Below, in pieces: positions 13,808 to 61,892 of a stretch of DNA of 62,229 nt (the first letter of the stretch is position 1; every line of letters starts with the position of its first letter). Origin of the DNA: Myxococcota bacterium (GTDB lineage Bacteria; Myxococcota; XYA12-FULL-58-9; JABJBS01); the NCBI GenBank assembly GCA_036230545.1, contig JAZAIZ010000212.1, positions 1-62,229 of the forward strand. The letters run 5' to 3'. The notes under the pieces are model-generated. The model was not told the DNA's origin. It worked only from the letters and a program-made list of their open reading frames with translations, and did not search any database. Position numbers and translations under genes: made by a program.

Positions 13808-14257
13808 TTACCCGAGGTACGCCTCCTCAAGTCGCCCAAGCTCCTCCACTCCCGCAGCCCCCTGAGGGTCCTCCACGGGGGCGTCAAACCACTGCTCAAG
13901 CACCTCCAACACCAGCTCCGAACTCATCAAACGGTTAGACAGGGCCAGAACGTTAGCGTGGTTCCACACGCGAGCTCCCCGGGCCGTCTCCGCATCACAA
14001 CAGAGCGCGGCGCGAATCCCCGGAACCTTGTTGGCGGCCATGCTGATGCCCGTCCCGGTCCAACAGAAAAAGATGCCCTCCGCGCAGTCCCCCGAGGCCA
14101 CCGCCTCCGCCGCCTCCCGGGCCACTGCCACCCAGGGCTCTTCCGCCCCGGAGCGCAGGCTGCCAAACACCACCGGCTCATGACCCCGACGCCGAAGTTC
14201 CTCCAGCACCACCCCATGAATGTCATAAGGCTCGTCACTGCACACCGCTACTCTCAT
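13808..14257 (-). CDS. rpiB: Ribose-5-phosphate isomerase B (RpiB/LacA/LacB family)
   Basis: MRVAVCSDE, CWTGTGISMAANKVPGIRAA and ARVWNHANVLAL are typical RpiB motifs. About 150 aa. Confidence 0.85.
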   Translation of the reverse strand: MRVAVCSDEPYDIHGVVLEELRRRGHEPVVFGSLRSGAEEPWVAVAREAAEAVASGDCAEGIFFCWTGTGISMAANKVPGIRAALCCDAETARGARVWNHANVLALSNRLMSSELVLEVLEQWFDAPVEDPQGAAGVEELGRLEEAYLG

Positions 14258-14437
14258 CCTCATCTCCCGTTGCGTCCCAGCATAAAGCTCCAGAGGACCC
14301 AACGCAATCTCCCCTTGCTCTCGACACTACTCTCAGAGTGTGGTTTGAAAGTAAGAGGGGGTGCATCTCCCCTCCAGGCCAGCCGGGGGCAACTCTTTGC
14401 CCGGCAGAGCGACACAAGGGGCAAAAAGGTTAGCACC

Positions 14438-31685: not shown

Positions 31686-35322
<3,637 letters not shown>

Positions 35323-35333
<11 letters not shown>

Positions 35334-40922: not shown

Positions 40923-42260
40923 TCAGAGCTTCGAGATATAAAGAATCCCCAGGCACATCTCATCCTGGGTTCCGTCCCCCCAGGCTACATTCCGGGGCTC
41001 CACAGCCTGCCCATCAATCCGGTGCTGATTCTCCGCGCTGTTGTCCCAAGTGCAGCTCATATGCAGTTTATCCCCGGGGTTGAACACCACAGGCTCCCGA
41101 AATCCGTAGGCTCTTTGCCAATTGAAGTCCCAGCGCGGAATGTCCAAAAGGCAGGTCTCAGCGCCCTCGGACTCCACCCAAAGCCTGGTCTGCACCCCCA
41201 GCTCGTGCATGTGCAGGGATGCCCAATGAATGCGGAAGGACTCCCCTGGTCCAAAGAGACCTCCAGTCAAAGCGCCCAGGTAAAATCCCGGATTGGCAGC
41301 GTAGCTATGAGTAACAGACTTCTGTCCGGCCGGGATCAGCATGTTTTCCCCCACAAACCACTGAAAGTTGAGCCACAGCAGGATGGACGCTGGGTGCTCC
41401 ACCTCCGAATCCAGCCTCAATTCAATGGAGGTCTTATCGGGCTGAGGGGCGTTGTCGAGAACGTTATAGTGAACCTGGAGAACAATCCGAGCCCCCTTCT
41501 GAAGCTGAATCCCAGTGCCTTCGGGAAAATCTGCTCCCTCTCCCCCGGGCGCCCAGGCCCCCAACCACTGAAACGCCCCCCGAGATCCGGGCCCGCCAAA
41601 GCACTGGTACCCATCGCCCTCATCCGCCGCATCCTTCTCCTCAATGGTGCCCACTTGGTCTGGAGCAACTAGAAACGCGATCACGTGATGAACGATGCCT
41701 GGGTTTCCGGGCAACGCTCGAAATCCGGTCACATACCCCTCATTCTCACCGGCCTCCCAGTCCAAAAGAAAGCAGCGGTAGTCATCGGGGGAGTCGACGG
41801 GAGTGTAAGCATTCTTCATCGACAAGGTCACATCAGAACGACTCAATTTCACCTCGGTGGCCGGGTTATGAACGGGAGCTCCCTCCTCAAGAGGATCGCC
41901 CTCCGGCCCCCCTTGGTCTACCCAATCGGTCAGGGTTTTCTTCTCGGCTGCGGTGAGCGCACCGCTTCCCGTGTAATCGTTGCAGGCCTCATCCCCCAAC
42001 CACGGTGGCATCGTCCCTCGCTTGACCTCCACCGCGATCGCTTCACGCAACGCATACGCGTCGTCATAAGAAGCGAAAGTGAATGGCGCGACGCCACCGG
42101 TAACGTGACAAGTGTTGCACTTCGAATCCAGAATCGGTTTGGCGTGCTGGTAATAATACACCGCCTCAACAGACTCGGTGTCCGAGTCACATCCCACACT
42201 CAAAACCACCAACAGAGTCAGGAGCAGCGCTCCCCCTAAGGTTTTTCTTATACTATTCAT
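40923..42260 (-). CDS. Lipoprotein with an N-terminal CxxCH segment and a copper type-II ascorbate-dependent monooxygenase (PHM/DBH)-like two-domain core
   Basis: Lipobox LSVGC. CNTCH at 42105-42119. GIVHHVIAF, QVHYN, LHMHELG and DEMCLGILY match the HH..H / HxH..M copper-ligand pattern of PHM/DBH. The ORF-track start at 42263 is GTG; an ATG follows at 42260. Confidence 0.6.
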   Translation of the reverse strand: MNSIRKTLGGALLLTLLVVLSVGCDSDTESVEAVYYYQHAKPILDSKCNTCHVTGGVAPFTFASYDDAYALREAIAVEVKRGTMPPWLGDEACNDYTGSGALTAAEKKTLTDWVDQGGPEGDPLEEGAPVHNPATEVKLSRSDVTLSMKNAYTPVDSPDDYRCFLLDWEAGENEGYVTGFRALPGNPGIVHHVIAFLVAPDQVGTIEEKDAADEGDGYQCFGGPGSRGAFQWLGAWAPGGEGADFPEGTGIQLQKGARIVLQVHYNVLDNAPQPDKTSIELRLDSEVEHPASILLWLNFQWFVGENMLIPAGQKSVTHSYAANPGFYLGALTGGLFGPGESFRIHWASLHMHELGVQTRLWVESEGAETCLLDIPRWDFNWQRAYGFREPVVFNPGDKLHMSCTWDNSAENQHRIDGQAVEPRNVAWGDGTQDEMCLGILYISKL

Positions 42261-42455
42261 CACGGCACCCCTTCGCTATTACAAGAAGAATCACAGGTAC
42301 CATCGCTCTCAGCCACTCGTTAGTCAACGGGCTTTTCATGCTTCTCTTTTCACATCTCTCTCCGCGTAGAAACAAATTCACGTTCTCATGCACCCGCGAA
42401 ATATAAAGCCACAGACGACCGGTACTTAAACCTTGTGCCGCAATCCTCAAGGCCT

Positions 42456-49200: not shown

Positions 49201-52200
49201 TTAAAATGAAGCGCTGGTTGCCGAAGCCTCATTTAATGGAAGCAGCACCCTGGCGATAACCCGGTCGTCCTCCATCTCCACCTCAATGGTAGGCTCTCCG
49301 GCGCAACGCCTGATGGCCTCCTCCCGGGCCTCACCGCGCTGAGTGACGCTCCATCGCCCCGCCTCCTCGGTGACCTCCAGCTCCCGAAAATCGATCCGGG
49401 CCCCAATGCCCAGGCCCTTAAGGTAAGCTTCTTTAATCGCCCAGAAGGCGGTCAGCAGCGCGTCCTTGTTGGAGGCCCTCCGGACCTGATCCAGCTCGGC
49501 CTCGCTAAAATAATCCCGCTCAAAGGACGTGTCCCGTGACTCAATCTGCTCGACGTCAATCCCCGGACGCTGGTTCTTCTCCAGCGACTGAAACGCCATC
49601 GCCACCCCCGCGCTGTGGGAGATGGAGACCCGAAGGGGCTCGGAGGCCTCCCCCGCGACCCTCACCTGGGGCGCCCCAAGGTCGTCTGGCAAAATGGTGA
49701 TCGCCCCATAGGGAACAATCGCGCCCTCCCGCGCGAAGCGCTCCTCTCGAATCAAGCGCTTAGCCACTATCCGGCCCGCCAACCACTCGAGACGACGTTT
49801 GGGGGTCTTGAGCCCCTCAAAACGTGGAATCTCCTTCTCGGAGAGATAACGCCGAAGAGTCCCCGACGGATCGGCCTCAAGCATCCCCTCCACTTCCGAG
49901 AGCTCCAAGGCGCTCCATGGGGCCCCGTCCCCGGAGCCGCGGGCCGGCTCAAAGCGATCCTCGGGGGGGAGCCTGTGAAGCGTCTCAGTACGATAGCCCA
50001 GCATTTGGTCGAAGCAGCGGCCATCCTCATCGCAGGTCCAGATATCAAAAACAGCGTCAGCGCCGCCGCCCTCCCTCAATCGCACCAGAGTCCGAAGCCC
50101 CCCCTCAGGCGCAGGCTCCGGGCTCAGTAGAATTCGGTCAACCCCCGCCGGCAGGGCCATCCTGCCAAGCTCAGCCATCTCCCATAATCCAGCGGCCTGA
50201 AAACCCACCTCTCGAAGAAAGGGAGATGTCTCAAACTCCCCGTGCCCGTGCTCCCCCAGCCAGGGGGAGCGGCGCTCCACCGGAGACACCTCGACGCCGT
50301 CTTCACCCAACACCGAAACCGCATCCAGCACCTGAAACACCGGACCGTCAAAATCGCGACGGTAGATGTCCTCCCGCGAGATTTGAGGATCCCGAGGCAG
50401 CTCCAGCCCTCGAGCCACGGGGGACTCCAGGGGCACACGTGCACCACCGCACGCCTCGGCGAAGAAGTGCTCCCGACGAAGGCGTTTCCCACTCGGTTTG
50501 GTGAAATAAGAGACGAGGACCGTCTCAAAACGAGAATCCTCCAAGCGCTTCACCTCCACTGAGATCTCCAGTGGTCGATCTTCAAACAACTTAACCGGGA
50601 GCGCGAAACGCACCTCCCGCAGCTCCGCGATGGGCTCTCCTGCAAAATGCGACGCCGCCCCGGCCATCAACTCCACCCCCAACACCCCCGGAAACACCGG
50701 GGTCCCCTCGAGACGATGGTGGTCGAGCCCCAAATCCTGGGCAGGATCAAGCCGGCGAAAATAACACGCCCCCTCACCCTGGCGTTCCCAAGCGTCAAAC
50801 AACCATGGCAGCGGCTCTCCTTCCTGATAAAGGCGTGGAGCCTCCTGCTCGGGGGCCGCAAAATGCCCGAGGGCCCCCGCCACCACCACGTCTCCGGAAC
50901 ACCCCGACGCCGCCAGGGACGCCCCCAGCGCGGCCCCTGTGGCAGCAGGAAGAAGATCTACCCCGGTAGATTCCAACACCTGCTGCACAGAGCCTCGAGT
51001 GGCCATCCCTACGTCTCCCCACGCAGTCCAATTGAGGTTAAGAATGTTGCGTTTCTCAGATCGAGACAAAGCCCCCATCAACTCCTTGGCAGCGGCGTAA
51101 TCGACCTGAGCGCCGTTGCCAAAGCGACCAGCCACCGAACCCATGGTCACCATGCGCTCGGGCCTGAGAGCAAACCATAGCGTCAGCGCCGCGCTCGCCT
51201 TGGGAGCAAACACCCGTTGAAACGCCACCATATCCTTGTCGTGAAGAAACTTCGACTCCTCAAGCCCCGCACCGTGGAGCAGCAGCGCTACACTCCCGAA
51301 GCGCCCGCTGATCTCCCCGGCCACTGCGGACAAAGCCTCCTGGTCGACCACATCACAGGGGAAAACCTCCACCTCGCAACCAAGGCTCCGAAGCGTCGCG
51401 ATGTTTTCGGCCACCTCCAGTCGACGCTCCTCCTTTTCGACCCACTCCCTGAGGGCCACGGGAGTGACCCGGCCCTCGGAGTCGCTCAAGGCCTCCCGCG
51501 CAATCTCCTTGCGCTGCGCCGCGTCTTTACCATGAATGGGGCTCTCCGCAGGAGTAACCCCGAGGGTTCGGGCAACCAGCGCCACACGCAAAGGTCCCTG
51601 GCTGGCGATGTGCTTTAAGAGCTCAAAGGTGACTCCCCGCGTACCACCGGTGACCACCACCGCGGCGCCGGGATCAAGGGTCCACTCTGGCTCCTCCACC
51701 ACAGCGACCCGTTGCAACGCCACGCGCGCTCCCTTCCACCAGGCCAACTCCACCGGTCCCTCCGAAAGCCACTCGCTGAGCGCGAGAGCTGCAGACTGCC
51801 GTGGTTCGTCGCTGATGTCATCGAGGTCAAAGGCACGACAATGAGCCCCCTCCCACTCTTTCGCCAGACTCTTGGCGATCCCACCGAGGGCCCCAAGGGT
51901 CACACCGCTCACGCCCTCCTCCCCAAAGCCGAACGCGCCCGGGCTGCTCCCGGCCAGCAGAAGTCCCGCTCCCCGCATCTCTCCCCGCACCCTTACAAAG
52001 GCCCGGGCCAGCTCAAAGGTCCGCTCAACGTGCCCACGAATCGAGTCGGGGGTGTCCGTCTGCGCGACGTTCACCAAAGAAACCAGATCATCAGGAGCTC
52101 GCTCCCCGAGATGCTGCATAAACGCCTCAAGTGCCTCTCCACTCAGAGCATCGTCCACTTCGACCACCCTCGCCTCCCGAGCGCTCAACTCCTCCCTGAA

Positions 52201-55200
52201 CGCAGCGCGAAGCGCCAAATCCCCTCCAGCCAGAAGAACCAGGCGTCCCTGCAGCGAGCGACGCTCGCCGGCGGAGGGCTCCGCGTACACGGTCCCCACC
52301 CGCTGCACAGTGAAGCGGCTCCCAACCTCCGGAAACCCACCCGGCGACGCCACGGGGTTAAGAGAGGTATCGCTGCTCAACGGCGCAGGGTTCGCCCCCT
52401 CCGCAGCAAACGAAGCGTTGGCGAGCACATAATCCGCCAAGGCGTTGAGGCTTTGCACATCTGCCAGCTTAAAGTTCTCCGTCTGGGGCAGACCAAAACG
52501 CTCTCGAATGACCGCCAGAATCTCAGCCTGTTTAACAGTGTCGATGCCCAGATCTTCTTCCAAGCCATAATCCGGCTCCAGCTCTTCCACATCGTAGCCG
52601 GTCTGCTCAGCGAAGAGCAGTTGAAGCTCGGTGATAAGACCGGAGCGCTCAGGAACCACACCCCCCTCCCCATTCACTTCGTCTGGGTCCTCCTGCCCTA
52701 ACGCAGGGGCCTCACCTGAAATGGTTGCGGGAGTGCCCCCGGTCTGACTCACAACATAGTCCACCACCGCGTTCAGGGTCTGCACCTCGGAGAGTTTAAA
52801 GTCCTCGTCGGAGGCCATCCCATAGCGGGTGCGCAGGAGCGAGAAGATCTCCGCCTGCTTGACGGTGTCAATGCCGAGGTCTGCCTCCAGTTCATAGCCA
52901 GGATCCAACTCCTCCGGTTCATAGCCGGTCTGCTCCGCGAAGAGATTCACCACCTCCTTGAGGAGATCCGCCCGTGAAGGCAGGTTTCCCTCCTCCTCCA
53001 TCGGGGCGGGCGCGGGCACATCGTGATCAATAAAGCTGGCCACATAGTCTGCCACCGCGCGGATCGTCTGTACCTCCGAGAGTTTGAACGACTCGTCGGT
53101 AGGCATTCCGTAGCGCTCCCGCAGCAGGGAGAAGATCTCCGCCTGCTTGACGGTGTCCACGCCAAGGTCTGCCTCCAATTGATAATCCGGCTCCAGCTCT
53201 TCAGGCTCGTAACCAGTCTGCTCCGCGAAGAGACGTTGAATCTCCTCCATCAGGTTCGCTCCCATCCCACTTGGAGCCTGCGCAACGACGGTGTGAGGCT
53301 CAGAGGCCGCCACCAGCGCCTCGGCTCGCTCGATGAGAGGACCTGCGCTAAGGGATAGGGAAGGCACACTCAATTCACTCACCCGCGCGCCCCCCTTCTC
53401 GGCGACCCGCAGGGTTCGTTTAACGATCTCAAGGCCGGCATCCTCCCGACCACATAAGCTATCTAACCAGGCGTGATAGCGCTCTGCCGACTGGAGGCGG
53501 GCCTCCTCCACCGCACGACGCCGATAGGCCACCATTGCAATCTGCGAACCAAAGCCAGCCGCGAATCGAATCGCGATTTCACGATCGATGGGGCTACCAT
53601 CCGCAAAGAGCAGATCTGCAAAGGCAGGGTCGACCTCCCTTAGATTCGCCACGGCCGGCAGCACCTGTCGCTGCAATCCCTTGAGAGACACCACATCTTC
53701 GAGGGTCGCTCCCATGGGGTGGCCGGTGTATCCTTTGGTGTTGGCGATCAGCACCCGAGCCCCGTGCTCGCCAAAAGCATTTTGAATGGCCTCCATCTCC
53801 GCTTGAGAGCTGCCACCCCGAGCCGGGGTGTAGGTTTCATGGGACATGAAAAAGCTTTTGTCGGCCAGGGTTCCAAGATCGTAGCCGGTTTTAACCTGCA
53901 CCTCTTCAACAAACTCGCTAAACACCTCCGAGATGACCCCACCGTCGAGGCGGGTCCCATGAAACGCACTGTTGGAAAAATGGCTGGCGACCACGTCGGC
54001 AATCCCCTGCATGCCTCTCTCTTCAACCAACGCCTCTCTCTCCAGCACAAAGCCCGAAGCCCCGGCCCCGAGAATCATCCCGTTGCGTTTCGCGCCAAAG
54101 GGCACCGCAGCATCCTCGACCTCCGACTCCACCGTAGCGGCTCCGGTTGCGAGAAAGCCCGAACCAATCCAAGGCAGGGTTGTGGCGCTGGTAACATCAT
54201 CTGCGGTCACCACCACCACCCGGTCACAGCGCCCGAGCCTGATCCAATCTGCAGCAACACCGATAGCCTGCCCCCCGGAGGCACACGCGGCGTTCACCGC
54301 GGTGTTGGGTCCTTTCGCGCCGATGGTCTGAGCCAGCTGGGCGTGGCCCATGGACAGAACCCAAAACAAAAACTTTCGATTAAAGCGATACCGGTCTCCT
54401 TCTCGCTCCAGCTCGTCGATGGTCGGCTGAAAATGGTCCGTCAGCCTCTTCACCTCCTCCGGATCTCCCATCTCAAACGCAAGGGAAGTCACCAGCGTGC
54501 GCAGTTCCTCCGCGGTTCGCCCAGCGTGGCTTGAGGCGGCCTGTCGGGAGACGTCGTCAATGAGCCTGTCGATTCCAGGAAACGCGCTTGCGAAGATCAC
54601 CCCCGTGCGTTTCGCCAAAGGCTCGGGCAAAGCCCAGCGGTCGGGCAGCTGCCGGCCGGTGGAGGTCTTTCGATATTTCCGCACCAGGGGCAACCCGGCG
54701 TCCCGCAATGCGTCAACGCCCGCGGCGATGGCGAGACGACTCGCCGTATCGAGGGCATCCACAAAGCCGCTGTCGAGGCCGTAGTCTCCCACCAGATCGA
54801 TGTCCCCGAGCCGACCCGCCAATTGAATCACCTCACCAAGCTCCTGAAGCTTCTCAAACTCGCCGGTGGTCTTGTTCAAACGCAGGACGTTCTTGTGCAC
54901 GATCTCCTGCCGAGCATCGGCCTGAATCGGCTTGATGAAATTCTCGCCCGCAAGAATCGGCCCAAACGAATCTTCACTCAACTCCCCCACGGGGTTCACG
55001 GTTGGCAGCATCACCGACATTCCGCTGACGCTCAGGGTCTCCTCCGCCTGCGAAGGCGCCGGTGTTGACGTCGGGGCTGGGGACACAGCTTCGTCCCGCA
55101 GCACGGGAATCTCAGCGCTCCTGTCAAATTGCACCGGGAGCCCGGCGGCAGCGAGGGCAGCGAGAGCGTCCATCAGGCACTCGTTCCCGGTCTTTTTGTG

Positions 55201-58200
55201 ATGGTTCGTCGCGACTGCATAATGGGGCCGCTTGCCGAGGATATTCCGCACAAAACCCGTGATAGCGCGACGTGGTCCCACCTCCACAAAAGTCCTGACG
55301 CCCTCCTGATAGAGCCGCTCCACCTGCCCGATGAACTCCACCGGCGACTCCAACTGCCTGGCCAAAAGCGTCACCACTTCATCCACACTCTCGGGATAGG
55401 GCTTGGCGTCGACGTTGGACAGAATGGGACACGTGGGCACCCGAATGTCGAGCCCACCGAGAACACGCGCCAAAGGCTTCGCCGCGGGCGCCACGATCTC
55501 GCTGTGAAAAGCATGAGACACCGGAATATGCCGCGCGTCGATCTTGAACTCCCCAAACCTTTCAACGGCGCTATCCACTGCATCGCTCGCTCCGGCGATC
55601 ACCGTCTGGGAGCTGCAGTTCTTGTTTGCCGCGATCACATACCCCTCGACGGTCTGCAAGATCTCCTCCACCCGCTCAGAGTCTGCTGCGACGGTGGCCA
55701 TTTTTCCGTTGTCCTCCACCTTGACCCCGGCCATCTCCCGACCGCGGGCGCTCACCGCGTAGAGGGCATCCGCGAAGGTCAGCACCCCCGCCGCCACGCA
55801 GGCCGCATACTCTCCAAGAGAGTGCCCCACGACAAAATCGGGGCGCACACCAAAAGACTGCAGGAGCCGCATCATGGCCACATCCGCGGTCAACATCGCC
55901 GGCTGGCAAATCTCGGTCTGCTTCAATCGCTCCGCCGCCTCGGGAGAGTCTGGAGCCAGATCCGAGGGCCACACGGTTTCCGTCAGGGTGCCCTCGATCA
56001 GCGGCCTGAGGATATCATCCGCCTCCCGAAAAGTCTGCTCCACCACCGGATAAGTCCCGGCAAGATCTTGAAACATGTTGATGTATTGGGAGCCCTGGCC
56101 AGGAAAGAGGAAGGCCACCTTGGAGTCGGAAGGGGCCGCCTCATCGAGATAAATCCCTTGAGCGGTGAGCGCCCGTTGCCGGCGTCGCTCCGCATCGACA
56201 GCTTTGGTCTGTGCCTGCTTAAGATCTGCGGCTGCGAAAGCCAATCGTACGGGCGCTTTGATGGCCACGTCCCGCGTAGCCACCAGCTGACTTGAGAAGC
56301 CACTGGCATCATTCAAGGTCTGTTGCGCTGTCTTCAGCACCGCCTCCCGAGAGTCTGCGCCAAACACAAACACCGCGGGACTCTCCAGGGGCTCACCTGC
56401 GGCCTCCTCCGCATCGTCGGGTGCCCTCCGGGTTGCGGCCACGTAGTCCACCACGGCGTTGAGGGTCTGAACATCGGCCAGGCGAAAGCTCTCATCGCGG
56501 ACCATTCCGTAACGCTCGCGGAGCACTCCAAAAATCTCAGCCTGCTTCACCGTGTCGATGCCAAGGTCTTGCTCAAGCTCATAACCCGGATCAAGCTCCT
56601 CAAGGTCATAGCCGGTGGTGTCAGCGAAGAGTTGTGTAACCTCCTGCAGCAATTGATCGCGATTCATGTCAACTCCGTGGGAAGGGCCGCGACCGGGCGC
56701 GACGGGGGGAATAGATTGTGGAGAGGGAGCCACCGGAGCAGTTGGAGGAATGGACTCCTCCAAGAGAGGCCCCCTCCCACTCTCTTCGAGGACCACATGA
56801 AAATTGGTGCCCCCAAAGCCAAAGGCGCTGACTCCCGCGCGGCGAGGAAGGCCGGTCTCTTCCCAGGGACGAGCGGTCTGAATCACCGACAGAAACCCCT
56901 GGTGCAGGGGCGACTCCCTGGTGGGCGAGTGAACGTTGGCGCTGGGGGGAAGGGTCTTGTGATGCAGCGCAAGGGCAGTCTTGATGAGAGCCGCCGCGCC
57001 GGCCGCGCTCTTGAGGTGGCCGATCATGGACTTGACCGAGCCAATGGGTGTTTTGGCCGGCGCCACCCCCGACTCCTGAATATAGTCCGAGAGCACCTGC
57101 AGCTCGGTCCCGTCCCCAACCACGGTGGACGTGCCATGGGCTTCAAAGAGCCCCACAGACTCCACGGGCACCCCACAAGACTGGTAGGCCCGCTCAATGG
57201 CGGCGCGCTGTCCACGGGGATTGGGAGCGGTCATCCCCTTACCCCGTCCGTCGCTGGCGGTGCCGACACCCCGAATCACAGCATACACCCGGTCACCGTC
57301 CCGCAAGGCGTCGGGCAGGCGCTTGAGGATCAACACCCCCGCTCCTTCCCCCATCACAAAACCGTTGGCCCGAGCGTCAAAGGGGGCGCTGTGCTCCGCG
57401 GAGAGGGCACCAATCTTTGAAAACTTCGCGTAGGTAGGAGGATCCATAGACCGGTCCACTCCACCGCTGATGGCCAAATCGTACTCCCCAAGCCTCAATC
57501 CCTGCACCGCGGTGTTCACCGCCGCCAGAGAGGCCGCGCAGGCTGCATCGGTGGTGTAATTGGGGCCCCGCAGGTCAAAGGTGTTGGCGATGCGTCCGGT
57601 GATGCAGTTGGAGAGTTCCCCGGGCATGGAGTCTTCGGTGACCTTTGGCAGCCGGGACTTAAAACGCGCCTCGATGTCCTGCAAGAGTTCCTCTTTGCCC
57701 GTGTCGGGGAGATGCTTCAGGGCGCCACTCTTTTCGAGAGCGTCCACCATGGACGGGTACCAGACGCGCAGACTGGTCAAGTCTTCAAACTCGCCCCCCA
57801 TGGCGTTACCCATGATCACAGCGGTCCTCTCGCGGTCAAAGGCACGGCCCTCCACCCCACGCCCGGCGAAGACCTCGAGGCCGGCATCTTCAAGGGCGTC
57901 AGCCACCGCGGTCAGGGCGATCTTTTGAATGTCGTCCACGGACTCCAGGGTACGAGGCGGAATGCGGAAACGTTTTTTGTCGAAGCGAACTTCATCGATA
58001 AACCCACCGATTCGAGAGTAGGTTCGGTCCGGCGCGCTGCGATCCTCCGACCAATAGAGTCGAGGCTCCCACCGGGACTCGGGGACCTCTTTAATCGCCA
58101 CATGCCCGCGACAGATATTCTCCCAAAAAGACGGAACATCCCCCGCGTCGGGAAAGCATCCCCCCATCCCGATAATTGCAACCCCAACGTCTCGTTCAGC

Positions 58201-58251
58201 ATCGTATCGACTCGTCACGCTCTCACTCCAACCCATACGGTGAGCCGTCAT
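49201..58251 (-). CDS. Iterative type I polyketide / PUFA-synthase-like megasynthase, 3016 aa: KS-CP-AT-KS-CP-CP-CP-KR-DH-PPTase
   Basis: Single uninterrupted frame.
- KS1: DAACASSLAAV, HGTSTVVGD, GHLKSAAG.
- AT: FPGQGSQY, GHSLGEY, SHAFHS.
- KS2: NAACASGG, SHETYT, GHPMGA.
- Four carrier-like domains: DLG(I/V)DTVKQAEI.
- KR: VVTGGTRG, YAAAK.
- DH: HHRLEGTPVFP (HxxxGxxxxP).
- PPTase: GIDVEQI, FWAIKEAYLKGLG. Confidence 0.9.
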   Translation of the reverse strand: MTAHRMGWSESVTSRYDAERDVGVAIIGMGGCFPDAGDVPSFWENICRGHVAIKEVPESRWEPRLYWSEDRSAPDRTYSRIGGFIDEVRFDKKRFRIPPRTLESVDDIQKIALTAVADALEDAGLEVFAGRGVEGRAFDRERTAVIMGNAMGGEFEDLTSLRVWYPSMVDALEKSGALKHLPDTGKEELLQDIEARFKSRLPKVTEDSMPGELSNCITGRIANTFDLRGPNYTTDAACAASLAAVNTAVQGLRLGEYDLAISGGVDRSMDPPTYAKFSKIGALSAEHSAPFDARANGFVMGEGAGVLILKRLPDALRDGDRVYAVIRGVGTASDGRGKGMTAPNPRGQRAAIERAYQSCGVPVESVGLFEAHGTSTVVGDGTELQVLSDYIQESGVAPAKTPIGSVKSMIGHLKSAAGAAALIKTALALHHKTLPPSANVHSPTRESPLHQGFLSVIQTARPWEETGLPRRAGVSAFGFGGTNFHVVLEESGRGPLLEESIPPTAPVAPSPQSIPPVAPGRGPSHGVDMNRDQLLQEVTQLFADTTGYDLEELDPGYELEQDLGIDTVKQAEIFGVLRERYGMVRDESFRLADVQTLNAVVDYVAATRRAPDDAEEAAGEPLESPAVFVFGADSREAVLKTAQQTLNDASGFSSQLVATRDVAIKAPVRLAFAAADLKQAQTKAVDAERRRQRALTAQGIYLDEAAPSDSKVAFLFPGQGSQYINMFQDLAGTYPVVEQTFREADDILRPLIEGTLTETVWPSDLAPDSPEAAERLKQTEICQPAMLTADVAMMRLLQSFGVRPDFVVGHSLGEYAACVAAGVLTFADALYAVSARGREMAGVKVEDNGKMATVAADSERVEEILQTVEGYVIAANKNCSSQTVIAGASDAVDSAVERFGEFKIDARHIPVSHAFHSEIVAPAAKPLARVLGGLDIRVPTCPILSNVDAKPYPESVDEVVTLLARQLESPVEFIGQVERLYQEGVRTFVEVGPRRAITGFVRNILGKRPHYAVATNHHKKTGNECLMDALAALAAAGLPVQFDRSAEIPVLRDEAVSPAPTSTPAPSQAEETLSVSGMSVMLPTVNPVGELSEDSFGPILAGENFIKPIQADARQEIVHKNVLRLNKTTGEFEKLQELGEVIQLAGRLGDIDLVGDYGLDSGFVDALDTASRLAIAAGVDALRDAGLPLVRKYRKTSTGRQLPDRWALPEPLAKRTGVIFASAFPGIDRLIDDVSRQAASSHAGRTAEELRTLVTSLAFEMGDPEEVKRLTDHFQPTIDELEREGDRYRFNRKFLFWVLSMGHAQLAQTIGAKGPNTAVNAACASGGQAIGVAADWIRLGRCDRVVVVTADDVTSATTLPWIGSGFLATGAATVESEVEDAAVPFGAKRNGMILGAGASGFVLEREALVEERGMQGIADVVASHFSNSAFHGTRLDGGVISEVFSEFVEEVQVKTGYDLGTLADKSFFMSHETYTPARGGSSQAEMEAIQNAFGEHGARVLIANTKGYTGHPMGATLEDVVSLKGLQRQVLPAVANLREVDPAFADLLFADGSPIDREIAIRFAAGFGSQIAMVAYRRRAVEEARLQSAERYHAWLDSLCGREDAGLEIVKRTLRVAEKGGARVSELSVPSLSLSAGPLIERAEALVAASEPHTVVAQAPSGMGANLMEEIQRLFAEQTGYEPEELEPDYQLEADLGVDTVKQAEIFSLLRERYGMPTDESFKLSEVQTIRAVADYVASFIDHDVPAPAPMEEEGNLPSRADLLKEVVNLFAEQTGYEPEELDPGYELEADLGIDTVKQAEIFSLLRTRYGMASDEDFKLSEVQTLNAVVDYVVSQTGGTPATISGEAPALGQEDPDEVNGEGGVVPERSGLITELQLLFAEQTGYDVEELEPDYGLEEDLGIDTVKQAEILAVIRERFGLPQTENFKLADVQSLNALADYVLANASFAAEGANPAPLSSDTSLNPVASPGGFPEVGSRFTVQRVGTVYAEPSAGERRSLQGRLVLLAGGDLALRAAFREELSAREARVVEVDDALSGEALEAFMQHLGERAPDDLVSLVNVAQTDTPDSIRGHVERTFELARAFVRVRGEMRGAGLLLAGSSPGAFGFGEEGVSGVTLGALGGIAKSLAKEWEGAHCRAFDLDDISDEPRQSAALALSEWLSEGPVELAWWKGARVALQRVAVVEEPEWTLDPGAAVVVTGGTRGVTFELLKHIASQGPLRVALVARTLGVTPAESPIHGKDAAQRKEIAREALSDSEGRVTPVALREWVEKEERRLEVAENIATLRSLGCEVEVFPCDVVDQEALSAVAGEISGRFGSVALLLHGAGLEESKFLHDKDMVAFQRVFAPKASAALTLWFALRPERMVTMGSVAGRFGNGAQVDYAAAKELMGALSRSEKRNILNLNWTAWGDVGMATRGSVQQVLESTGVDLLPAATGAALGASLAASGCSGDVVVAGALGHFAAPEQEAPRLYQEGEPLPWLFDAWERQGEGACYFRRLDPAQDLGLDHHRLEGTPVFPGVLGVELMAGAASHFAGEPIAELREVRFALPVKLFEDRPLEISVEVKRLEDSRFETVLVSYFTKPSGKRLRREHFFAEACGGARVPLESPVARGLELPRDPQISREDIYRRDFDGPVFQVLDAVSVLGEDGVEVSPVERRSPWLGEHGHGEFETSPFLREVGFQAAGLWEMAELGRMALPAGVDRILLSPEPAPEGGLRTLVRLREGGGADAVFDIWTCDEDGRCFDQMLGYRTETLHRLPPEDRFEPARGSGDGAPWSALELSEVEGMLEADPSGTLRRYLSEKEIPRFEGLKTPKRRLEWLAGRIVAKRLIREERFAREGAIVPYGAITILPDDLGAPQVRVAGEASEPLRVSISHSAGVAMAFQSLEKNQRPGIDVEQIESRDTSFERDYFSEAELDQVRRASNKDALLTAFWAIKEAYLKGLGIGARIDFRELEVTEEAGRWSVTQRGEAREEAIRRCAGEPTIEVEMEDDRVIARVLLPLNEASATSASF
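49204..49890 (-). other. PKS domain: C-terminal 4'-phosphopantetheinyl transferase (approximate bounds)
   Basis: LAGRIVAKR, VSISHSAGVAMA, GIDVEQI and FWAIKEAYLKGLG match PPTase (Sfp/EntD superfamily) motifs. Confidence 0.7.
49960..50820 (-). other. PKS domain: PKS-type double-hotdog dehydratase (approximate bounds)
   Basis: LDHHRLEGTPVFPGVLGVELM (HxxxGxxxxP) followed by about 250 aa of hotdog-like sequence. Confidence 0.65.
50930..52330 (-). other. PKS domain: ketoreductase with N-terminal structural subdomain (approximate bounds)
   Basis: AVVVTGGTRGVTFEL Rossmann motif, ...HGAGL..., VDYAAAKE catalytic Tyr-xxx-Lys. Confidence 0.75.
52417..53260 (-). repeat. Tandem triplicated carrier-domain repeat (periods 288 and 327 nt) inside the PKS gene
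   Basis: Three consecutive copies of ...LFAEQTGY(E/D)xEEL(E/D)P(D/G)Y.LE.DLG(I/V)DTVKQAEI..., with long near-identical nucleotide stretches. Thr codons at 53152-53154, 52864-52866 and 52537-52539. Confidence 0.85.
53620..55035 (-). other. PKS domain: ketosynthase 2 (FabF-like, Cys-His-His retained; approximate bounds)
   Basis: LSVSGMSVMLP ... ALDTASRLAIAAGVDALRDAGL ... VNAACASGGQA ... MSHETYTP ... KGYTGHPMGA. Confidence 0.75.
55140..56120 (-). other. PKS domain: acyltransferase (malonyl-CoA:ACP transacylase type; approximate bounds)
   Basis: VAFLFPGQGSQY, VVGHSLGEYAA, PVSHAFHS. Confidence 0.8.
56431..56655 (-). other. PKS domain: carrier-protein-like domain 1, Thr567 at the canonical Ser position (approximate bounds)
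   Basis: LLQEVTQLFADTTGYDLEELDPGYELEQDLGIDTVKQAEIFGVLRERYGM. Thr codon ACG at 56551-56553. Confidence 0.7.
56783..58191 (-). other. PKS domain: ketosynthase 1 (approximate bounds)
   Basis: VAIIGMGGCFP ... DAACASSL ... HGTSTVVGD ... GHLKSAAG ... GFGGTNFHVVLEE. Confidence 0.8.
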
Positions 58252-58975
58252 TCATCCTGACATGCCTACCGGTTAGCAACACCCGGGGCTCCTGTAGCTC
58301 CCGGATCCTGACGCTCTTTCTGCCGGCAACCTGTGCCGATCCCATTGTGCGAAAACGCTCCAGACCCTGCACAGACGCGCTCCCGAAGGACACAAGCCCT
58401 CGAAAGCTCCTGAGCATAAAGCGCTCTCACAGCATGAACCATGCGGCTTGCCCATGGTTCGTTTCTCCAGCGCACTCCAGCGCCGTCTGCAGGATAAGCA
58501 AGAGCCATACCATGCAAGCTAAGGGAGCCAACCAACGCGACTAAGAGCTGAAGTTGACTAATTTGTCGAATTATTTTTGGACGCGGAGCAAGCCTGCTCG
58601 CCCGCGCCCCGCAAAATTCCGCTGCGAAGTGGAAGACGAATCAGCATTCAGTAAACCCTCTTCCTGAAGGCACCTCCCGCTGTTCACCATGAGCAATCCC
58701 CTTGAATCCCCAAACGAAAAACCAAACCCGAAGGAACGCTGCGTCCAGAAGGTGCGTATCTTCCTTCACACTCTCCTCTCGATGCTGCGTCGGGCCATCA
58801 TCAACGAGGGGATGTTGACACCCCTTGGGGCCTTGGTTACCGTGCCCTGAAACCTTTATGAGGAAGCAGGAATGCCAACACCCCGCCCTGAAGTGACCCG
58901 CGACGCCCTCATGCTAAAGGGCGCAAAGGAGCTTGAGCGGAGGCATCCCGGTATTCAAGAATGGAGACTGCCGCC

Positions 58976-59689
58976 ATGCTGAAGCTCTGCCCCGTTGTTG
59001 TCTGGTCACTCCCGCTGCTCCTCCTGCTCAGCGCCTGCGCGGGCCCCCCGGCCCCCGGGGTGCTCTTTGGCCCCACCCAGCCGGTCACCGCCGCCGACTA
59101 CGACACCATCCTTAAGACCTGGACTCGCAGCACACGCATCTATGATGGGCTGGACACCAAGGCCTTCATCACCGCCACCTTTCACGCCCCGGAGTTCAGA
59201 CGGGTCTTCGCCCTGGCTTTTCCGGACATCTACGGTCACGGCGGCGACGTCACCCGACGGGAGCTCGTGGACCTCACTGAAGACGTCGAGCAATACCTCA
59301 ACTTTTTCGTGGCCCTCTACACCCCGGACCGAAAATGGAACGATCTCGCCAAAAACGATTCTATCTGGCGCCTGACTCTGACCGGCAATCATGAAGTCTC
59401 GGTGGCTCCGGTGGAGGTCGTCCCAGTGAAGATTGATGAGAACCTGCGAGCGGTCTACCCGCACCTTGGCAGGTTTGACCAAGTCTACATCGTTCGCTTT
59501 CCCCTGGCCGATCCCATGGGACGCCTGGTCCTGCATCCCTCCAGCGAAGGGTTCAGCCTCAGGCTGGCCAGCGCCCTGGGACACAGCCTGCTGAGTTGGG
59601 AGCTCCAGCCCCCCAGTGGCGACGCCACCTACCAAAAGCGCTACCCCCTCAAGATCAGCAGCTCAAGCCCCATTAGCGAATACCCCTGA
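58976..59689 (+). CDS. Hypothetical lipoprotein
   Basis: MLKLCPVVVWSLPLLLLLSAC (signal peptide plus lipobox). About 237 aa. No catalytic motif recognised. Confidence 0.5.
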   Translation: MLKLCPVVVWSLPLLLLLSACAGPPAPGVLFGPTQPVTAADYDTILKTWTRSTRIYDGLDTKAFITATFHAPEFRRVFALAFPDIYGHGGDVTRRELVDLTEDVEQYLNFFVALYTPDRKWNDLAKNDSIWRLTLTGNHEVSVAPVEVVPVKIDENLRAVYPHLGRFDQVYIVRFPLADPMGRLVLHPSSEGFSLRLASALGHSLLSWELQPPSGDATYQKRYPLKISSSSPISEYP

Positions 59690-60263: not shown

Positions 60264-61892
60264 TCAGGCGGTGCTTCTGCAGCGCCAGTGGACGTTTAAG
60301 AGCAATCCCAAGCCGAGCATGGTCGTTATGATGCTCGATCCCCCATAGCAAAAAAGCGGCAAGGTCATCCCCACCACCGGGGCCACCCCGATTACCATGC
60401 CCACGTTGATGAGGGTCTGCCACAAAATGAGCGCAGCCACCCCAACGGCCAGAAGGGCTCCATAAGTCTCCCGCGCCTCCGCCGCGATAGCGAAGGCCAT
60501 AATCAAAAGCAGAAGATAAAGCGCCAGCAGAATTGTGCACCCCACAAAGCCCTGCTCCTCGGCCCACACGCTGAAGGCAAAGTCAGTGTGCTGCTCCGGC
60601 AAAAACGAGAAGCGGGTCTGGGTGCCCCCTTTGTGTCCCTGTCCAAACCACCGCCCCGATCCCACCGCAATTAGCGATTGAATGGCGTTCCACCCGGCCC
60701 CGTGAATGTCGTTCTCCGGATCGATGAAGGTCAAAATGCGCCGCTTCTGATAATCCTTCAGGACCCCAAACCAGCCCACCACGGCAACCACGCTCCCAAG
60801 CACTCCCAAAATGGCGATGGACTTCGCTTTAATCCCCACCACAAAGATCATGGTCATTCCGATAAAGACGACGATCCCGGCAGTGCCCAAATCCGGTTCC
60901 ACAAGAATCAAGAGCGCAGGAAGCGCCAGCAAATCAATGGGGGCGATCATCAGGTCGATCAGGGGGCCCTTCCAGCGCCGAAAAGAGAGGATCGAGATGA
61001 TCCCATAAAGCGCAACAAGAGCGCTCAAGGTGCCCCGCAGCCACCATCCGCCGCCGAGGGTGCGGTACATTCCCCCGGAGCCACCTTCAAAGCTCAAGAA
61101 ATTCATCAGGGTGGCAAAGGGATCCCGCAGCCAGTCCCAATCCCAAAACCACGCAAGACAGCACAAGGCCAGGGTCCCAACAATGACCACCCCCCCAATC
61201 AATCGACGCCGACGCAAGGGGGGCCAGGGATTCAGCAGCGCCTGGGCCTGGGACGCGCGAACGATGCTCCAGATTAATCCCCCCGAGCAGACGAAAATCA
61301 TCACCAAACAGAAACAGCGAAACCACATCAGGTCTTCAACCTGAAAAAGAGCGCCCCCCATAGTGGTGTGAATCCACCGCGCCAGCTCCCCCACAGGATC
61401 CAACATCCACGCTTTGTTCCAGCAAACAACCACCACCCCCACCACCAGCAAGGGCCGGCTAATGTTCAAGGGACGAAAGAGTTCCGAGAGAGAATAGCCG
61501 CCCTCTTTGACTCGGGGACCAAAATAGCGGGCCAGACACAATATCGTGGCGATCTTGGCCAATTCCGAGGGCTGAAAGCGAAACGAGCCCAGGGAGATCC
61601 AACGCTGAGCTCCCCCCGCCTTGGTACCAAAGAGAAGCACCGCCAAGAGCAGGACGCAGATGAGCCCGTAGACGAGATACGCCAAGTTCTCACTGAGCCG
61701 ATAATCCACAGCCATGGTCATCACCACCACGACCGCCCCCACCCCCAACCAGGAAAGCTGGGTCCAATAGAGATCGGGATTCTTAGCGGCCGCCGCCGAG
61801 TGCAGGTTATAAACCCCCAGACCCGCCACCAGCACAATGAGGCCAATCAGGGGCCAGTGCAGCTCCCAAAAACGCTCTTTACGAACCTTCAT
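60264..61892 (-). CDS. rodA: Peptidoglycan glycosyltransferase RodA (SEDS family) with a large internal insertion
   Basis: FQPSELAKI, EPDLGTA, QSLIAVGSGRWFGQG, LPEQHTDFAFSV and GMTLPLFCYGGSS are SEDS motifs. ATGA overlap with the upstream PBP2 gene. 542 aa versus about 370 expected. Confidence 0.85.
   Translation of the reverse strand: MKVRKERFWELHWPLIGLIVLVAGLGVYNLHSAAAAKNPDLYWTQLSWLGVGAVVVVMTMAVDYRLSENLAYLVYGLICVLLLAVLLFGTKAGGAQRWISLGSFRFQPSELAKIATILCLARYFGPRVKEGGYSLSELFRPLNISRPLLVVGVVVVCWNKAWMLDPVGELARWIHTTMGGALFQVEDLMWFRCFCLVMIFVCSGGLIWSIVRASQAQALLNPWPPLRRRRLIGGVVIVGTLALCCLAWFWDWDWLRDPFATLMNFLSFEGGSGGMYRTLGGGWWLRGTLSALVALYGIISILSFRRWKGPLIDLMIAPIDLLALPALLILVEPDLGTAGIVVFIGMTMIFVVGIKAKSIAILGVLGSVVAVVGWFGVLKDYQKRRILTFIDPENDIHGAGWNAIQSLIAVGSGRWFGQGHKGGTQTRFSFLPEQHTDFAFSVWAEEQGFVGCTILLALYLLLLIMAFAIAAEARETYGALLAVGVAALILWQTLINVGMVIGVAPVVGMTLPLFCYGGSSIITTMLGLGLLLNVHWRCRSTA

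What the first reader, a model, noticed from the sequence alone, without database searches (positions are those of the whole stretch)
49201..58251. Stand-alone 3016-aa megasynthase with non-canonical domain order KS-CP-AT-KS-CP3-KR-DH-PPTase and no partner genes
Motifs read from the translation give this order: a full KS; a carrier domain inserted between KS and AT; an AT; a second complete FabF-like KS that keeps Cys-His-His; three tandem carrier domains; KR; a PKS-type DH; and a C-terminal PPTase.

This is neither of the two closest architectures I know:
- PfaA-type PUFA synthase is KS-AT-ACPn-KR(-DH), and works with separate KS/CLF, FabA-type DH and ER subunits.
- Enediyne PKSE is KS-AT-ACP-KR-DH-PPTase.

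It combines the tandem carrier array of PUFA and heterocyst-glycolipid synthases with the in-cis PPTase of PKSE, and adds a second KS.

No ER, thioesterase, FabA-like DH/isomerase, acyltransferase or other tailoring gene is present in the window. Flanking genes are housekeeping (yqgE, coaD, trxA, rodA).

With KR and DH but no ER, the inferred product class is a polyene or a hydroxy/olefinic long-chain 'secondary lipid'. How the chain is released is not evident.
Basis: partly seen in the sequence, partly recalled or inferred. Interest (0 to 1): 0.8.

Follow-up and report, generated by a model that had tools for sequence, protein, structure and literature searches.

The report
Self-activating two-ketosynthase fatty-acid-like megasynthase
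The 9-kb gene is real and encodes a one-protein, self-activating lipid-chain factory from a widespread family whose product nobody has determined, and whose carrier domains use threonine where all textbook carriers use serine.

Summary
ORF 49201-58251 (-) encodes 3016 aa with domain order KS1-CP-AT-KS2-CP3-KR-DH-PPTase. All catalytic residues are intact, every domain is under purifying selection, and no ER, TE, ACC or other lipid gene lies in the 62-kb window.

It is not an orphan architecture. It is a PPTase-fused variant of the 'Type R' secondary-lipid synthase of Shulse & Allen 2011 (KS-MAT-'CLF'-ACPn-KR plus a PPTase gene), whose product is still unknown. KS2 is the family hallmark: a full FabF-fold KS with Cys-His-His and the motif SHETYTPARGG. 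It has 518 representatives at 50% identity, in many bacterial phyla and in Poseidoniales and Asgard archaea.

Relatives sit in operons with acetyl/acyl-CoA carboxylase, a PPTase and one of three unrelated enoyl-reductase candidates: ACAD/ETF, FabI-like, or fused FabK-like. The family therefore looks like a complete iterative fatty-acid synthase, not a polyene PKS. This gene probably uses an ER encoded elsewhere, which is inferred, not shown.

Verdict: new variant of a known but uncharacterised kind; interest 0.6.

The parts
49201..58251 (-). Whole megasynthase ORF, 3016 aa: KS1-CP-AT-KS2-CP-CP-CP-KR-DH-PPTase
   Evidence: dN/dS is 0.12 against the 89%-identical orthologue in L081.
56767..58194 (-). 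KS1 (aa 20-495), PfaA-type ketosynthase with C238/H372/H412
   Evidence: Pfam ketoacyl-synt E 4e-78. Best NCBIfam hit is the PfaA N-terminus, 422 bits. Catalytic residues invariant.
56428..56664 (-). CP0 (aa 530-608), carrier domain inserted between KS1 and the KS-AT linker. Attachment residue is Thr567 (codon 56551-56553).
55117..56139 (-). Malonyl-type acyltransferase (aa 705-1045): GHS811LGE, R836, HAFH916
   Evidence: Pfam Acyl_transf_1 E 1e-42. FabD 232 bits. Residues.
53482..55029 (-). KS2 (aa 1075-1590), the family hallmark. A divergent FabF-fold ketosynthase with C1323/H1471 (SHETYTPARGG)/K1506/H1511 and a helical-hairpin insertion at aa 1227-1285.
53026..53265 (-). CP1 (aa 1663-1742), Thr1700 at the Ppant site (codon 53152-53154)
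52741..52977 (-). CP2 (aa 1759-1837), Thr1796 (codon 52864-52866)
52408..52647 (-). CP3 (aa 1869-1948), Thr1905 (codon 52537-52539)
50902..52329 (-). KR with its N-terminal structural subdomain (aa 1975-2450), catalytic Y2385
   Evidence: Pfam KR E 1e-24. Best NCBIfam hit is the PfaA KR region. Y2385 invariant.
49942..50814 (-). PKS-type double-hotdog dehydratase (aa 2480-2770): H2512xxxG2516xxxxP2521, and E2681xxxQ2685 in the second hotdog
   Evidence: Pfam PKS_DH_N + PS-DH. Invariant columns.
49252..49854 (-). C-terminal Sfp/HetI-like PPTase (aa 2800-3000). Motifs: KRRxxWxxGRxxAK, SISH (P1b' hShxH), GID2899xE2901, WAIKE2941AxxK.
   Evidence: Pfam ACPS. Weak HetI/AcpS hits in NCBIfam. 40% identical (E 3e-28) to the stand-alone PPTase beside a PPT-less relative in L001. 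Motifs shared with 25 such PPTases.

Best explanation
The gene encodes an iterative, self-activating, type-I fatty-acid-synthase-like megasynthase. It belongs to the PfaA-derived 'Type R' two-ketosynthase family.

Proposed mechanism:
1. The C-terminal Sfp-like PPTase converts the four equivalent carrier domains to the holo form, attaching phosphopantetheine to a threonine instead of the usual serine.
2. The malonyl-specific AT loads the carriers from malonyl-CoA.
3. Two decarboxylating ketosynthases extend the chain: KS1 (PfaA-type) and KS2 (FabF-fold, Cys-His-His). They probably divide the work by chain length or between priming and elongation, as the two KS of PUFA synthases do.
4. KR and the PKS-type DH produce a trans-2-enoyl thioester.
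5. An enoyl reductase encoded outside this window reduces it, giving a long, largely saturated acyl chain.
6. The chain is passed on, to CoA via the AT or directly to an acyltransferase, without a dedicated thioesterase.

Shown here: the domain set, intact active sites, family membership, the family's operon partners, and purifying selection.
Inferred: Thr as the attachment site, the trans ER, the product class, and the release route.
For: Architecture and catalytic residues.

KS identities: KS1 best matches PfaA. KS2 best matches the fatty-acid elongation enzyme FabF by sequence (1j3n, E 1e-24; TIGR03150) and by fold (pLDDT 91.5, TM 0.83-0.88).

Family:
- Shulse & Allen Type R is KS-MAT-CLF-ACP(3-6)-KR plus a PPTase gene, with PPTase motif hShxH. 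The query has SISH.
- Its PPT domain is 40% identical to a stand-alone PPTase from a PPT-less relative.

Operon context of relatives:
- Of 55 species-representative loci with at least 4.5 kb of upstream sequence, 44 have an ACAD directly upstream. Its best NCBIfam hit is the reductive acryloyl-CoA reductase AcrC, and 14 loci also have ETF-alpha.
- 40 of the 55 have carboxylase parts (CT-BC-BCCP, or a single-chain carboxylase of about 1850 aa) and at least 33 have a PPTase.
- Poseidoniales loci have a FabI-like gene abutting the start.
- Asgard loci and four bacterial homologues have a fused FabK/PfaD-type NMO domain.
- Three non-homologous ER candidates at the same position argue that the family needs an ER.

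Closer relatives:
- P0007, P0013 and P0014 have an acyl-CoA carboxylase CT gene overlapping the stop codon.
- Persicimonas caeni has BCCP and CT downstream.
- A Thermoplasmatota MAG has CT, then the synthase, then BioY, BC and BCCP.

Threonine:
- 468 of 478 carrier domains in 121 homologues, and 241 of 244 in 80 further loci, carry Thr. The rest carry Ser.
- The Thr aligns with the Ppant Ser of solved ACPs.
- A dedicated PPTase is always fused or adjacent.

Selection: omega is 0.05-0.16 for every domain.
Against: - No ER candidate lies in the 62-kb window. None lies within about 6-10 kb of the other members of this gene's own subclade (L081, L082/L168, L083, L167, L170) or of the Thermoplasmatota members.
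- The ACAD could be a desaturase, or merely a beta-oxidation neighbour, rather than an ER.
- No member of the family has a determined product. A 2026 paper still lists only a handful of characterised secondary lipids.
- Phosphopantetheinylation of Thr has no precedent that I could find. From memory, E. coli ACP S36T is not modified by AcpS.
- No release enzyme was identified.
- The rest of the source genome could not be inspected.
Confidence: 0.55

Rival explanations
1. ER-less highly reducing iterative PKS. KS/KR/DH cycles without enoyl reduction give a conjugated polyene or a hydroxy/olefinic long-chain 'secondary lipid', as enediyne PKSE makes a heptaene.
For: - There is no ER domain in the protein, no ER gene in the window, and none near the six closest syntenic relatives.
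- The C-terminal KR-DH-PPTase arrangement is the same as in PKSE.
- 69 of 121 PPT-fused homologues carry only an N-terminal NMO-like domain lacking the EAGGH histidine. It looks degenerate.
Against: - The family as a whole is linked to ER candidates of three unrelated types.
- It is tightly coupled to acetyl/acyl-CoA carboxylase, which fits bulk lipid flux rather than a pigment or warhead.
- KS2 is closest to the fatty-acid enzyme FabF.
- There is no PKSE-type thioesterase or enediyne cassette.
- From established knowledge of PUFA synthases (Hayashi et al. 2019, listed), the PfaA-type PKS-DH serves the saturating cycles.
Confidence: 0.25
2. Primary fatty-acid synthase. In this Myxococcota-like lineage the megasynthase has replaced the FabF/FabB-based type II elongation system, and it makes the membrane fatty acids.
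For: - The gene sits at a fixed place in a housekeeping block (mreBCD-PBP2-rodA-trx-lipoprotein-synthase-DUF179-coaD-rsmD-SMC) in relatives down to 51-54% identity, which indicates vertical inheritance.
- It is under purifying selection.
- It is translationally coupled to a carboxylase CT gene in relatives.
- Mu et al. 2020 report that all Bradymonabacteria genomes lack FabB/F and FabI/L. Yet Bradymonas sediminis and Persicimonas caeni carry a homologue followed by BCCP and CT.
- Archaeal carriers of the family lack a type II FAS as a rule (established knowledge).
- Shulse & Allen already proposed such a 'core' role for Types M and S.
Against: - The source genome could not be searched for fab genes.
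- The Type R organisms named in 2011 (Koribacter, Solibacter, Roseiflexus) were not flagged as lacking FAS II.
- The Bradymonabacteria claim is KEGG-based, and those genomes also lack FabI/L, so the ER would still be missing.
- Bradymonas fatty acids are largely iso-branched (from memory), which needs a branched primer that this AT (HAFH, malonyl-type) would not load.
Confidence: 0.3
3. Supplier of a specialised long-chain precursor such as wax esters, storage lipid or hydrocarbons, which unlinked enzymes then convert.
For: - WS/DGAT wax-ester synthase and an AdhE-like aldehyde/alcohol dehydrogenase lie upstream of the operon in several Acidobacteriota loci (L003, L194, L221, L225, L235, L240).
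- This is the original 'secondary lipid' proposal.
Against: Those neighbours are confined to one phylum. They are absent from the window and from its close relatives.
Confidence: 0.15

Closest known systems
Type R secondary-lipid synthase (Shulse & Allen 2011, PLoS One 6:e20146; Koribacter, Solibacter, Elusimicrobium, Roseiflexus)
   Same: - One PfaA-like protein with KS-MAT-second KS ('CLF')-tandem ACPs-KR, and a dedicated PPTase with the hShxH motif.
- Association with acetyl-CoA carboxylase.
- KS2 hallmark SHETYTPARGG shared at 45-50% identity with loci from Roseiflexus, Elusimicrobia and Acidobacteriota.
   Different: - Here the PPTase is fused to the C-terminus.
- One carrier has moved to between KS1 and AT.
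- No ACAD, ACC or PPTase gene is adjacent.
- The 'CLF' label does not fit: Cys-His-His is invariant.
- The product of Type R is itself unknown.
PfaA subunit of bacterial PUFA synthase (TIGR02813)
   Same: KS1, AT, KR and the PKS-type DH are most similar to PfaA. Both have a tandem carrier array and work iteratively.
   Different: - The score is below the family cutoff (852 against 1010 bits).
- A second KS is inserted after the AT.
- Carriers use Thr where, from memory, canonical PfaA carriers use Ser (LGIDSIKRVEIL).
- A PPTase is fused.
- No pfaB, pfaC (KS-CLF-FabA DH) or pfaD is present in the window.
Enediyne PKSE (SgcE/CalE8): KS-AT-ACP-KR-DH-PPTase
   Same: An iterative type I enzyme with a C-terminal KR-DH-PPTase, self-phosphopantetheinylation and no ER domain.
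   Different: - PKSE has one KS and one ACP.
- From memory, its ACP attachment residue is Ser.
- It works with a hot-dog thioesterase and the conserved enediyne cassette, none of which is present here.
Type I fatty acid synthases (fungal FAS alpha/beta; CMN-group bacterial FAS I)
   Same: All activities for chain building sit on a megasynthase. Fungal FAS also has a cis PPTase, and the query's PPT domain gives weak hits to it. In the fungal enzyme release needs no thioesterase (from memory; the acyltransferase transfers the chain to CoA).
   Different: No ER domain, no homology of overall architecture, tandem carriers, two KS, and PfaA-type ancestry.
Type II FabF (beta-ketoacyl-ACP synthase II)
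   Same: KS2 has the complete FabF fold and the Cys-His-His-Lys catalytic set.
   Different: About 22% identity, an extra helical hairpin of about 60 residues, the motif HETYTPARGG instead of HGTGT, and it is embedded in a megasynthase.

Membership tests
Type R secondary-lipid synthase (Shulse & Allen 2011) | Single PfaA homologue with KS-MAT-second KS ('CLF')-ACP(3-6)-KR | tested here: met
   KS1-(CP)-AT-KS2-CP3-KR-DH. It has three tandem carriers plus one relocated carrier. The DH is also present in PPT-less relatives.
Type R secondary-lipid synthase (Shulse & Allen 2011) | Dedicated PPTase encoded with the synthase, carrying the P1b' motif hShxH | tested here: met
   The PPTase is fused rather than downstream. 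It is 40% identical (E 3e-28) to the stand-alone PPTase of L001. VSISH and other motifs are shared with 25 operon PPTases.
Type R secondary-lipid synthase (Shulse & Allen 2011) | KS groups phylogenetically with Type R reference sequences (Koribacter, Solibacter, Elusimicrobium, Roseiflexus) | tested here: inconclusive
   No tree was built with the 2011 references. Indirect evidence: KS2-specific patterns retrieve loci from Roseiflexus sp., Elusimicrobia and Acidobacteriota with the same architecture at 45-50% KS2 identity.
PfaA (PUFA synthase subunit A, TIGR02813) | Whole-protein score above the curated cutoff | tested here: not met
   851.7 bits against a cutoff of 1010.1.
PfaA (PUFA synthase subunit A, TIGR02813) | Works with PfaB, PfaC (KS-CLF-FabA-type DH) and PfaD (ER), encoded in the same cluster | tested here: not met
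   None of these is in the 62-kb window or in the flanks of close relatives.
Enediyne PKSE | KS-AT-ACP-KR-DH-PPTase with a single KS and a single ACP | tested here: not met
   Two KS and four carriers.
Enediyne PKSE | Adjacent hot-dog thioesterase and conserved enediyne cassette genes | tested here: not met
   Flanking genes are housekeeping. No thioesterase family was found.
Canonical phosphopantetheine carrier domains (PF00550 / PROSITE PS00012) | Conserved Ser in the (D/H)S(L/I) motif as the attachment site | tested here: not met
   The fold and profile match (PP-binding x4), but the site is Thr in all four domains. It aligns with the Ser of PigH and AcpP structures.
Chain-length factor (KS-beta / CLF) | Loss of the active-site Cys (Gln or other residue) | tested here: not met
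   C1323, H1471 and H1511 are invariant in KS2 across 21-31 homologues, including PPT-less Type R-like loci.
Complete type I fatty acid synthase | Enoyl reductase activity in the protein or its operon | tested here: not met
   There is no ER in the protein or the window. The feature is met in most relatives through ACAD/ETF, FabI-like or fused NMO.

The most novel reading that the evidence does not exclude
The two-KS, Thr-carrier megasynthase family is a third, self-contained route of de novo bulk fatty-acid synthesis, made of synthase, dedicated PPTase, carboxylase and an interchangeable ER. Under this reading:
- In this Myxococcota-like lineage and in Bradymonadia it has replaced FabF/FabB-dependent type II synthesis.
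- In Poseidoniales and Asgard archaea it supplies fatty acids.
- Its carriers are the first natural ones phosphopantetheinylated on threonine, which insulates them from the host's AcpS/Sfp enzymes.
Probability: 0.25. Interest if true: 0.85.

Novelty: new variant of a known kind. Interest (0 to 1): 0.6.

Why it matters
- **Scale of the unknown.** The family is large: 518 representative clusters at 50% identity at E<=1e-30, and more than 600 hits among species-representative genomes. It spans Myxococcota, Acidobacteriota, Chloroflexota, Actinomycetota, Elusimicrobia, marine Group II archaea and Asgard archaea. No member has a known product.
- **Reinterpreting 'auxotrophs' and archaeal lipids.** If these enzymes are complete fatty-acid synthases, predatory Bradymonabacteria now read as fatty-acid auxotrophs would need re-examination. 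Archaea carrying them would have a bacterial-style route to fatty acids, which bears on the 'lipid divide'.
- **Carrier-protein chemistry.** Near-universal Thr at the phosphopantetheine site, always with a dedicated PPTase, would be a new variant of a textbook modification. It would also be a ready-made orthogonal carrier/PPTase pair for engineering.
- **This gene as a test object.** It is the most compact form of the system: everything except the ER is on one polypeptide.

Tried and rejected
Searches that led nowhere:
- The search for related loci with the single protein found no close relative in species genomes.
- The exact protein is not on record.
- A SufB scan to place the organism was uninformative: 75-81% identity to many phyla.
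- The listing of cluster members gave almost no names.
- Literature searches found nothing beyond the 2011 paper. Topics tried: Thr-type carriers, follow-ups on Type R, and archaeal or Elusimicrobium megasynthases.
- Rfam found nothing in the window.
- The 709-bp upstream region is conserved only with the 89% relative, so no leader element could be called.
- Promoter and terminator scans were at background.
It was redone with A4.

Readings considered and rejected:
- **KS2 is a chain-length factor.** Cys-His-His is invariant and the fold is FabF-like.
- **CP0 is a specialised loading carrier.** It is 56-63% identical to CP1-3, the same range as those among themselves. Carrier position also varies across the family.
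- **Recent horizontal island.** GC is within the window's range and synteny is conserved down to 51-54% identity.
- **Pseudogene or annotation artefact.** The ORF is intact and omega is 0.12.
- **Canonical PfaA or PKSE membership.** See the membership tests.
Full report
**1. What is in the sequence**

The minus strand carries one uninterrupted ORF, 49201-58251, ATG start, 3016 aa.

Pfam finds two ketosynthases, an acyltransferase, four PP-binding domains, a KR, a PKS-type dehydratase and an ACPS-type PPTase. E-values range from 4e-78 to 2e-14.

I mapped the order with the protein's own domains as phmmer and tblastn queries:
- KS1 20-495
- CP0 530-608
- AT 705-1045
- KS2 1075-1590
- CP1 1663-1742
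- CP2 1759-1837
- CP3 1869-1948
- KR 1975-2450
- DH 2480-2770
- PPT 2800-3000

Every catalytic residue expected is present and invariant in alignments of 23 and 31 homologues:
- KS1: C238/H372/H412
- AT: GHS811LGE, R836 and the malonyl-type HAFH916
- KS2: C1323/H1471/K1506/H1511
- KR: Y2385
- DH: H2512xxxGxxxxP
- PPT: GID2899xE2901 and WxxKE2941

Against the 89%-identical orthologue (L081), dN/dS is 0.12 overall and 0.05-0.16 for each domain, including CP0, KS2 and the PPTase.

**2. The second KS**

- Sequence: KS2 matches FabF only over its C-terminal two-thirds (1j3n, E 1e-24; TIGR03150, 131 bits).
- Relation to KS1: only about 31% identical over 101 residues, so it is not a recent copy.
- Fold: an AlphaFold2 model built on 30 homologues is confident (pLDDT 91.5, pTM 0.90). 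It superposes on the whole of FabF from several bacteria (TM 0.83-0.88 normalised to target).
- Insertion: the extra length is a two-helix hairpin at residues 1227-1285.
- Hallmark: the motif around the first His, SHETYTPARGG, is invariant and diagnostic.
- Family size: a search of 1.84 billion representatives with KS2 alone gives 518 proteins at E<=1e-30. The best 150 all score above 414 bits, and most of the listed ones are multidomain proteins of 1000-4000 residues.

**3.

All four carrier domains read LG(I/V)D-T-VKQAEI. The threonines are T567, T1700, T1796 and T1905. Each sits exactly where solved ACPs (PigH, AcpP) have the phosphopantetheinylated serine.

This is a family trait:
- 468 of 478 carrier domains in 121 homologues have Thr and 10 have Ser. 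Two proteins are all-Ser.
- 241 Thr against 3 Ser in 80 further genomic loci.

The occasional swap to Ser, and never to a residue without a hydroxyl, argues that the hydroxyl is used. A dedicated PPTase is always fused or adjacent.

I found no paper describing Thr-linked carriers. That is absence in the library searched, not proof of novelty.

**4. It belongs to a family already described but not characterised**

Shulse & Allen (2011, PMC3098273) defined the 'Type R' secondary-lipid synthase. It is one pfaA homologue, KS-MAT-CLF-ACP(3-6)-KR, followed by a PPTase gene. They found it in Koribacter, Solibacter, Elusimicrobium and Roseiflexus, sometimes with an acetyl-CoA carboxylase gene between the two. 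The product was unknown. Its PPTases carry the hShxH motif.

The query matches this description:
- It has VSISH and the other PPTase motifs in common with 25 operon-encoded PPTases.
- Its PPT domain is 40% identical to one of them.

The 120 best database homologues all have two KS. They come in five arrangements:
- KS1-AT-CP-KS2-CPn-KR-DH-PPT: 64
- KS1-AT-KS2-CPn-...-PPT: 21
- the query's KS1-CP-AT-KS2-CPn-...-PPT: 25
- KS1-AT-CP3-4-KS2-KR-DH-PPT (including Bradymonas and Persicimonas): 5
- ER-KS1-CP2-AT-KS2-CP-...-PPT: 3

Carrier position is thus plastic. In the query, CP0 is 56-63% identical to CP1-3, the same as these among themselves. So the 'non-canonical order' is a permutation of equivalent beads on a string.

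The 'CLF' label of 2011 does not fit. KS2 keeps Cys-His-His in PPT-less, Type R-like loci as well.

A 2026 survey still states that only a handful of secondary lipids are known.

**5. What the relatives' neighbourhoods say**

The best 80 loci come from:
- Myxococcota, and a MAG labelled Bdellovibrionales
- Thermoplasmatota, Heimdall- and Promethearchaeota
- Acidobacteriota
- Chloroflexota (Roseiflexus, Kouleothrix, Caldilineaceae, Anaerolineae)
- Actinomycetota (for example Nostocoides australiense, Ilumatobacter)
- Saprospiraceae, Spirochaetia and Elusimicrobia

A census with phmmer covers the 55 loci that have at least 4.5 kb of upstream sequence:
- 44 have an acyl-CoA-dehydrogenase-family gene directly upstream, and 14 also have ETF-alpha.
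- 40 have carboxylase components downstream. These are either CT-BC-BCCP or a single-chain biotin carboxylase-containing protein of about 1850 aa.
- At least 33 have a PPTase.

Further details on the ER candidates:
- The ACAD's best curated match is the reductive acryloyl-CoA reductase AcrC (231 bits).
- In Poseidoniales the gene abutting the start is FabI-like. All its top NCBIfam hits are FabI, at 200-230 bits.
- In Asgard loci and four bacterial homologues a FabK/PfaD-type NMO domain is fused to the N-terminus.

Three unrelated enoyl-reductase candidates occupy the same operon slot, and a malonyl-CoA-producing carboxylase accompanies them. This is what one expects of a complete iterative fatty-acid synthase. 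It is not expected of a polyene synthase.

Some Acidobacteriota operons also carry WS/DGAT and an AdhE-like gene.

**6. This gene's own lineage**

The nearest relatives are 51-89% identical. Their source records label them Myxococcota, or in one case Bdellovibrionales. They share the query's architecture.

They also share its position: mreBCD-PBP2-rodA, thioredoxin, a conserved divergent lipoprotein gene, the synthase, then DUF179, coaD, rsmD and SMC.

In several of them an acyl-CoA carboxylase CT gene overlaps the synthase's stop codon. One also has an ACAD next to it.

The window has neither, and no ER of any of the three kinds. GC content is not aberrant.

The gene is therefore a vertically inherited, selected, stand-alone version of the system. 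Its ER, if it uses one, is encoded elsewhere. I could not inspect the rest of the genome.

**7. Most likely mechanism, and its rivals**

Best explanation (0.55): an iterative FAS-like enzyme.
1. The cis PPTase loads phosphopantetheine on the four Thr carriers.
2. The AT supplies malonyl units.
3. KS1 (PfaA-type) and KS2 (FabF-type) share the condensations. Division of labour between two KS is established for PUFA synthases (PMC11962503, listed).
4. KR and DH give the enoyl intermediate.
5. A trans ER saturates it.
6. The chain leaves without a thioesterase.

The lack of any nearby ER in this subclade keeps this reading alive.

Stronger version of the best explanation (0.3, overlapping with it): the enzyme is the lineage's primary fatty-acid synthase.
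- For: the housekeeping synteny and the carboxylase coupling. Also, all Bradymonabacteria genomes are reported to lack FabB/F and FabI/L (Mu et al. 2020), while two cultured members carry a homologue followed by BCCP and CT.
- Against: that analysis is KEGG-based. A later paper makes a similar claim even for Myxococcus xanthus, which I regard as doubtful. The evidence is suggestive only.

**8. Verdict**

The finding is real and well described. It is a new variant of a known but functionally uncharacterised kind, distinguished by a fused PPTase, a relocated carrier and the absence of linked partners. It is not a new kind.

The interest lies at family level:
- an unknown product
- threonine carriers
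- interchangeable ER partners
- presence in abundant marine and Asgard archaea

Noticed in passing
window 58961-59689 (+): A 242-aa predicted lipoprotein (signal peptide plus lipobox LLSAC) with no Pfam or NCBIfam hit is transcribed divergently from the megasynthase. It is conserved at the same position in relatives, at 93%, 64% and 43% identity in L081, L083 and L082. ORFs of similar size and strand occupy that place in L167 and L170. Its function is unknown, and a link to the synthase is untested.
   Followed up: partly
homologues P0028, P0040, P0045, P0046 etc. (N-terminal 200-450 aa); P0058/74/86/108 (N-terminal 540-710 aa): 69 of 121 PPT-fused homologues start with a domain homologous to the first N-terminal domain of the ER-fused proteins (hhalign probability 99%). 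It is only weakly like the NMO/FabK barrel (74%). The EAGGH histidine is replaced (EAGGF/A/L), so it may be a pseudo-ER or a docking domain. The query lacks it.
   Followed up: partly
L003, L010, L016, L019, L021 and about 20 loci among L179-L245, immediately downstream of the synthase: A single-chain protein of about 1800-1900 aa starts with a biotin carboxylase domain. It looks like a eukaryote-like multidomain acyl-CoA carboxylase and takes the place of the CT-BC-BCCP genes seen in Chloroflexota operons.
   Followed up: partly
L180, L184, L188, L193, L200 (Heimdall-/Promethearchaeota); L009, L012, L015, L017, L022, L166, L169-L173 (Thermoplasmatota): Archaeal genomes carry the whole system: CT, (NMO-)synthase(-PPT), BCCP and BC, or FabI-like, synthase and PPTase. 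That is a bacterial-type, carrier-dependent fatty-acid machinery in archaea.
   Followed up: partly
window 31686-35333 (+): A 1215-aa ORF combines an N-terminal DUF255/thioredoxin-DsbH domain, a weak GH127/GH88-like middle region and a C-terminal aldo/keto reductase. This is an unusual fusion.
   Followed up: no
window 40923-42263 (-): A 446-aa ORF matches both halves of the copper type II ascorbate-dependent monooxygenase family (PHM/DBH-like), which is uncommon in bacteria.
   Followed up: no
window 60264-61892 (-): RodA is 542 aa, and the FTSW_RODA_SPOVE match starts only around residue 300. The long N-terminal extension is kept in relatives, whose RodA is 540-547 aa.
   Followed up: no
window 13958-17368 (+): A 1136-aa ORF gives only a weak, partial match to PEP carboxylase (E 6.5e-22, residues 251-743). 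It may be a divergent PEPC.
   Followed up: no
window 1-62229: GC skew is negative in every 2-kb bin (-0.03 to -0.21) although genes lie on both strands. This suggests the whole window lies on one replichore, with the + strand as the lagging-strand template.
   Followed up: no
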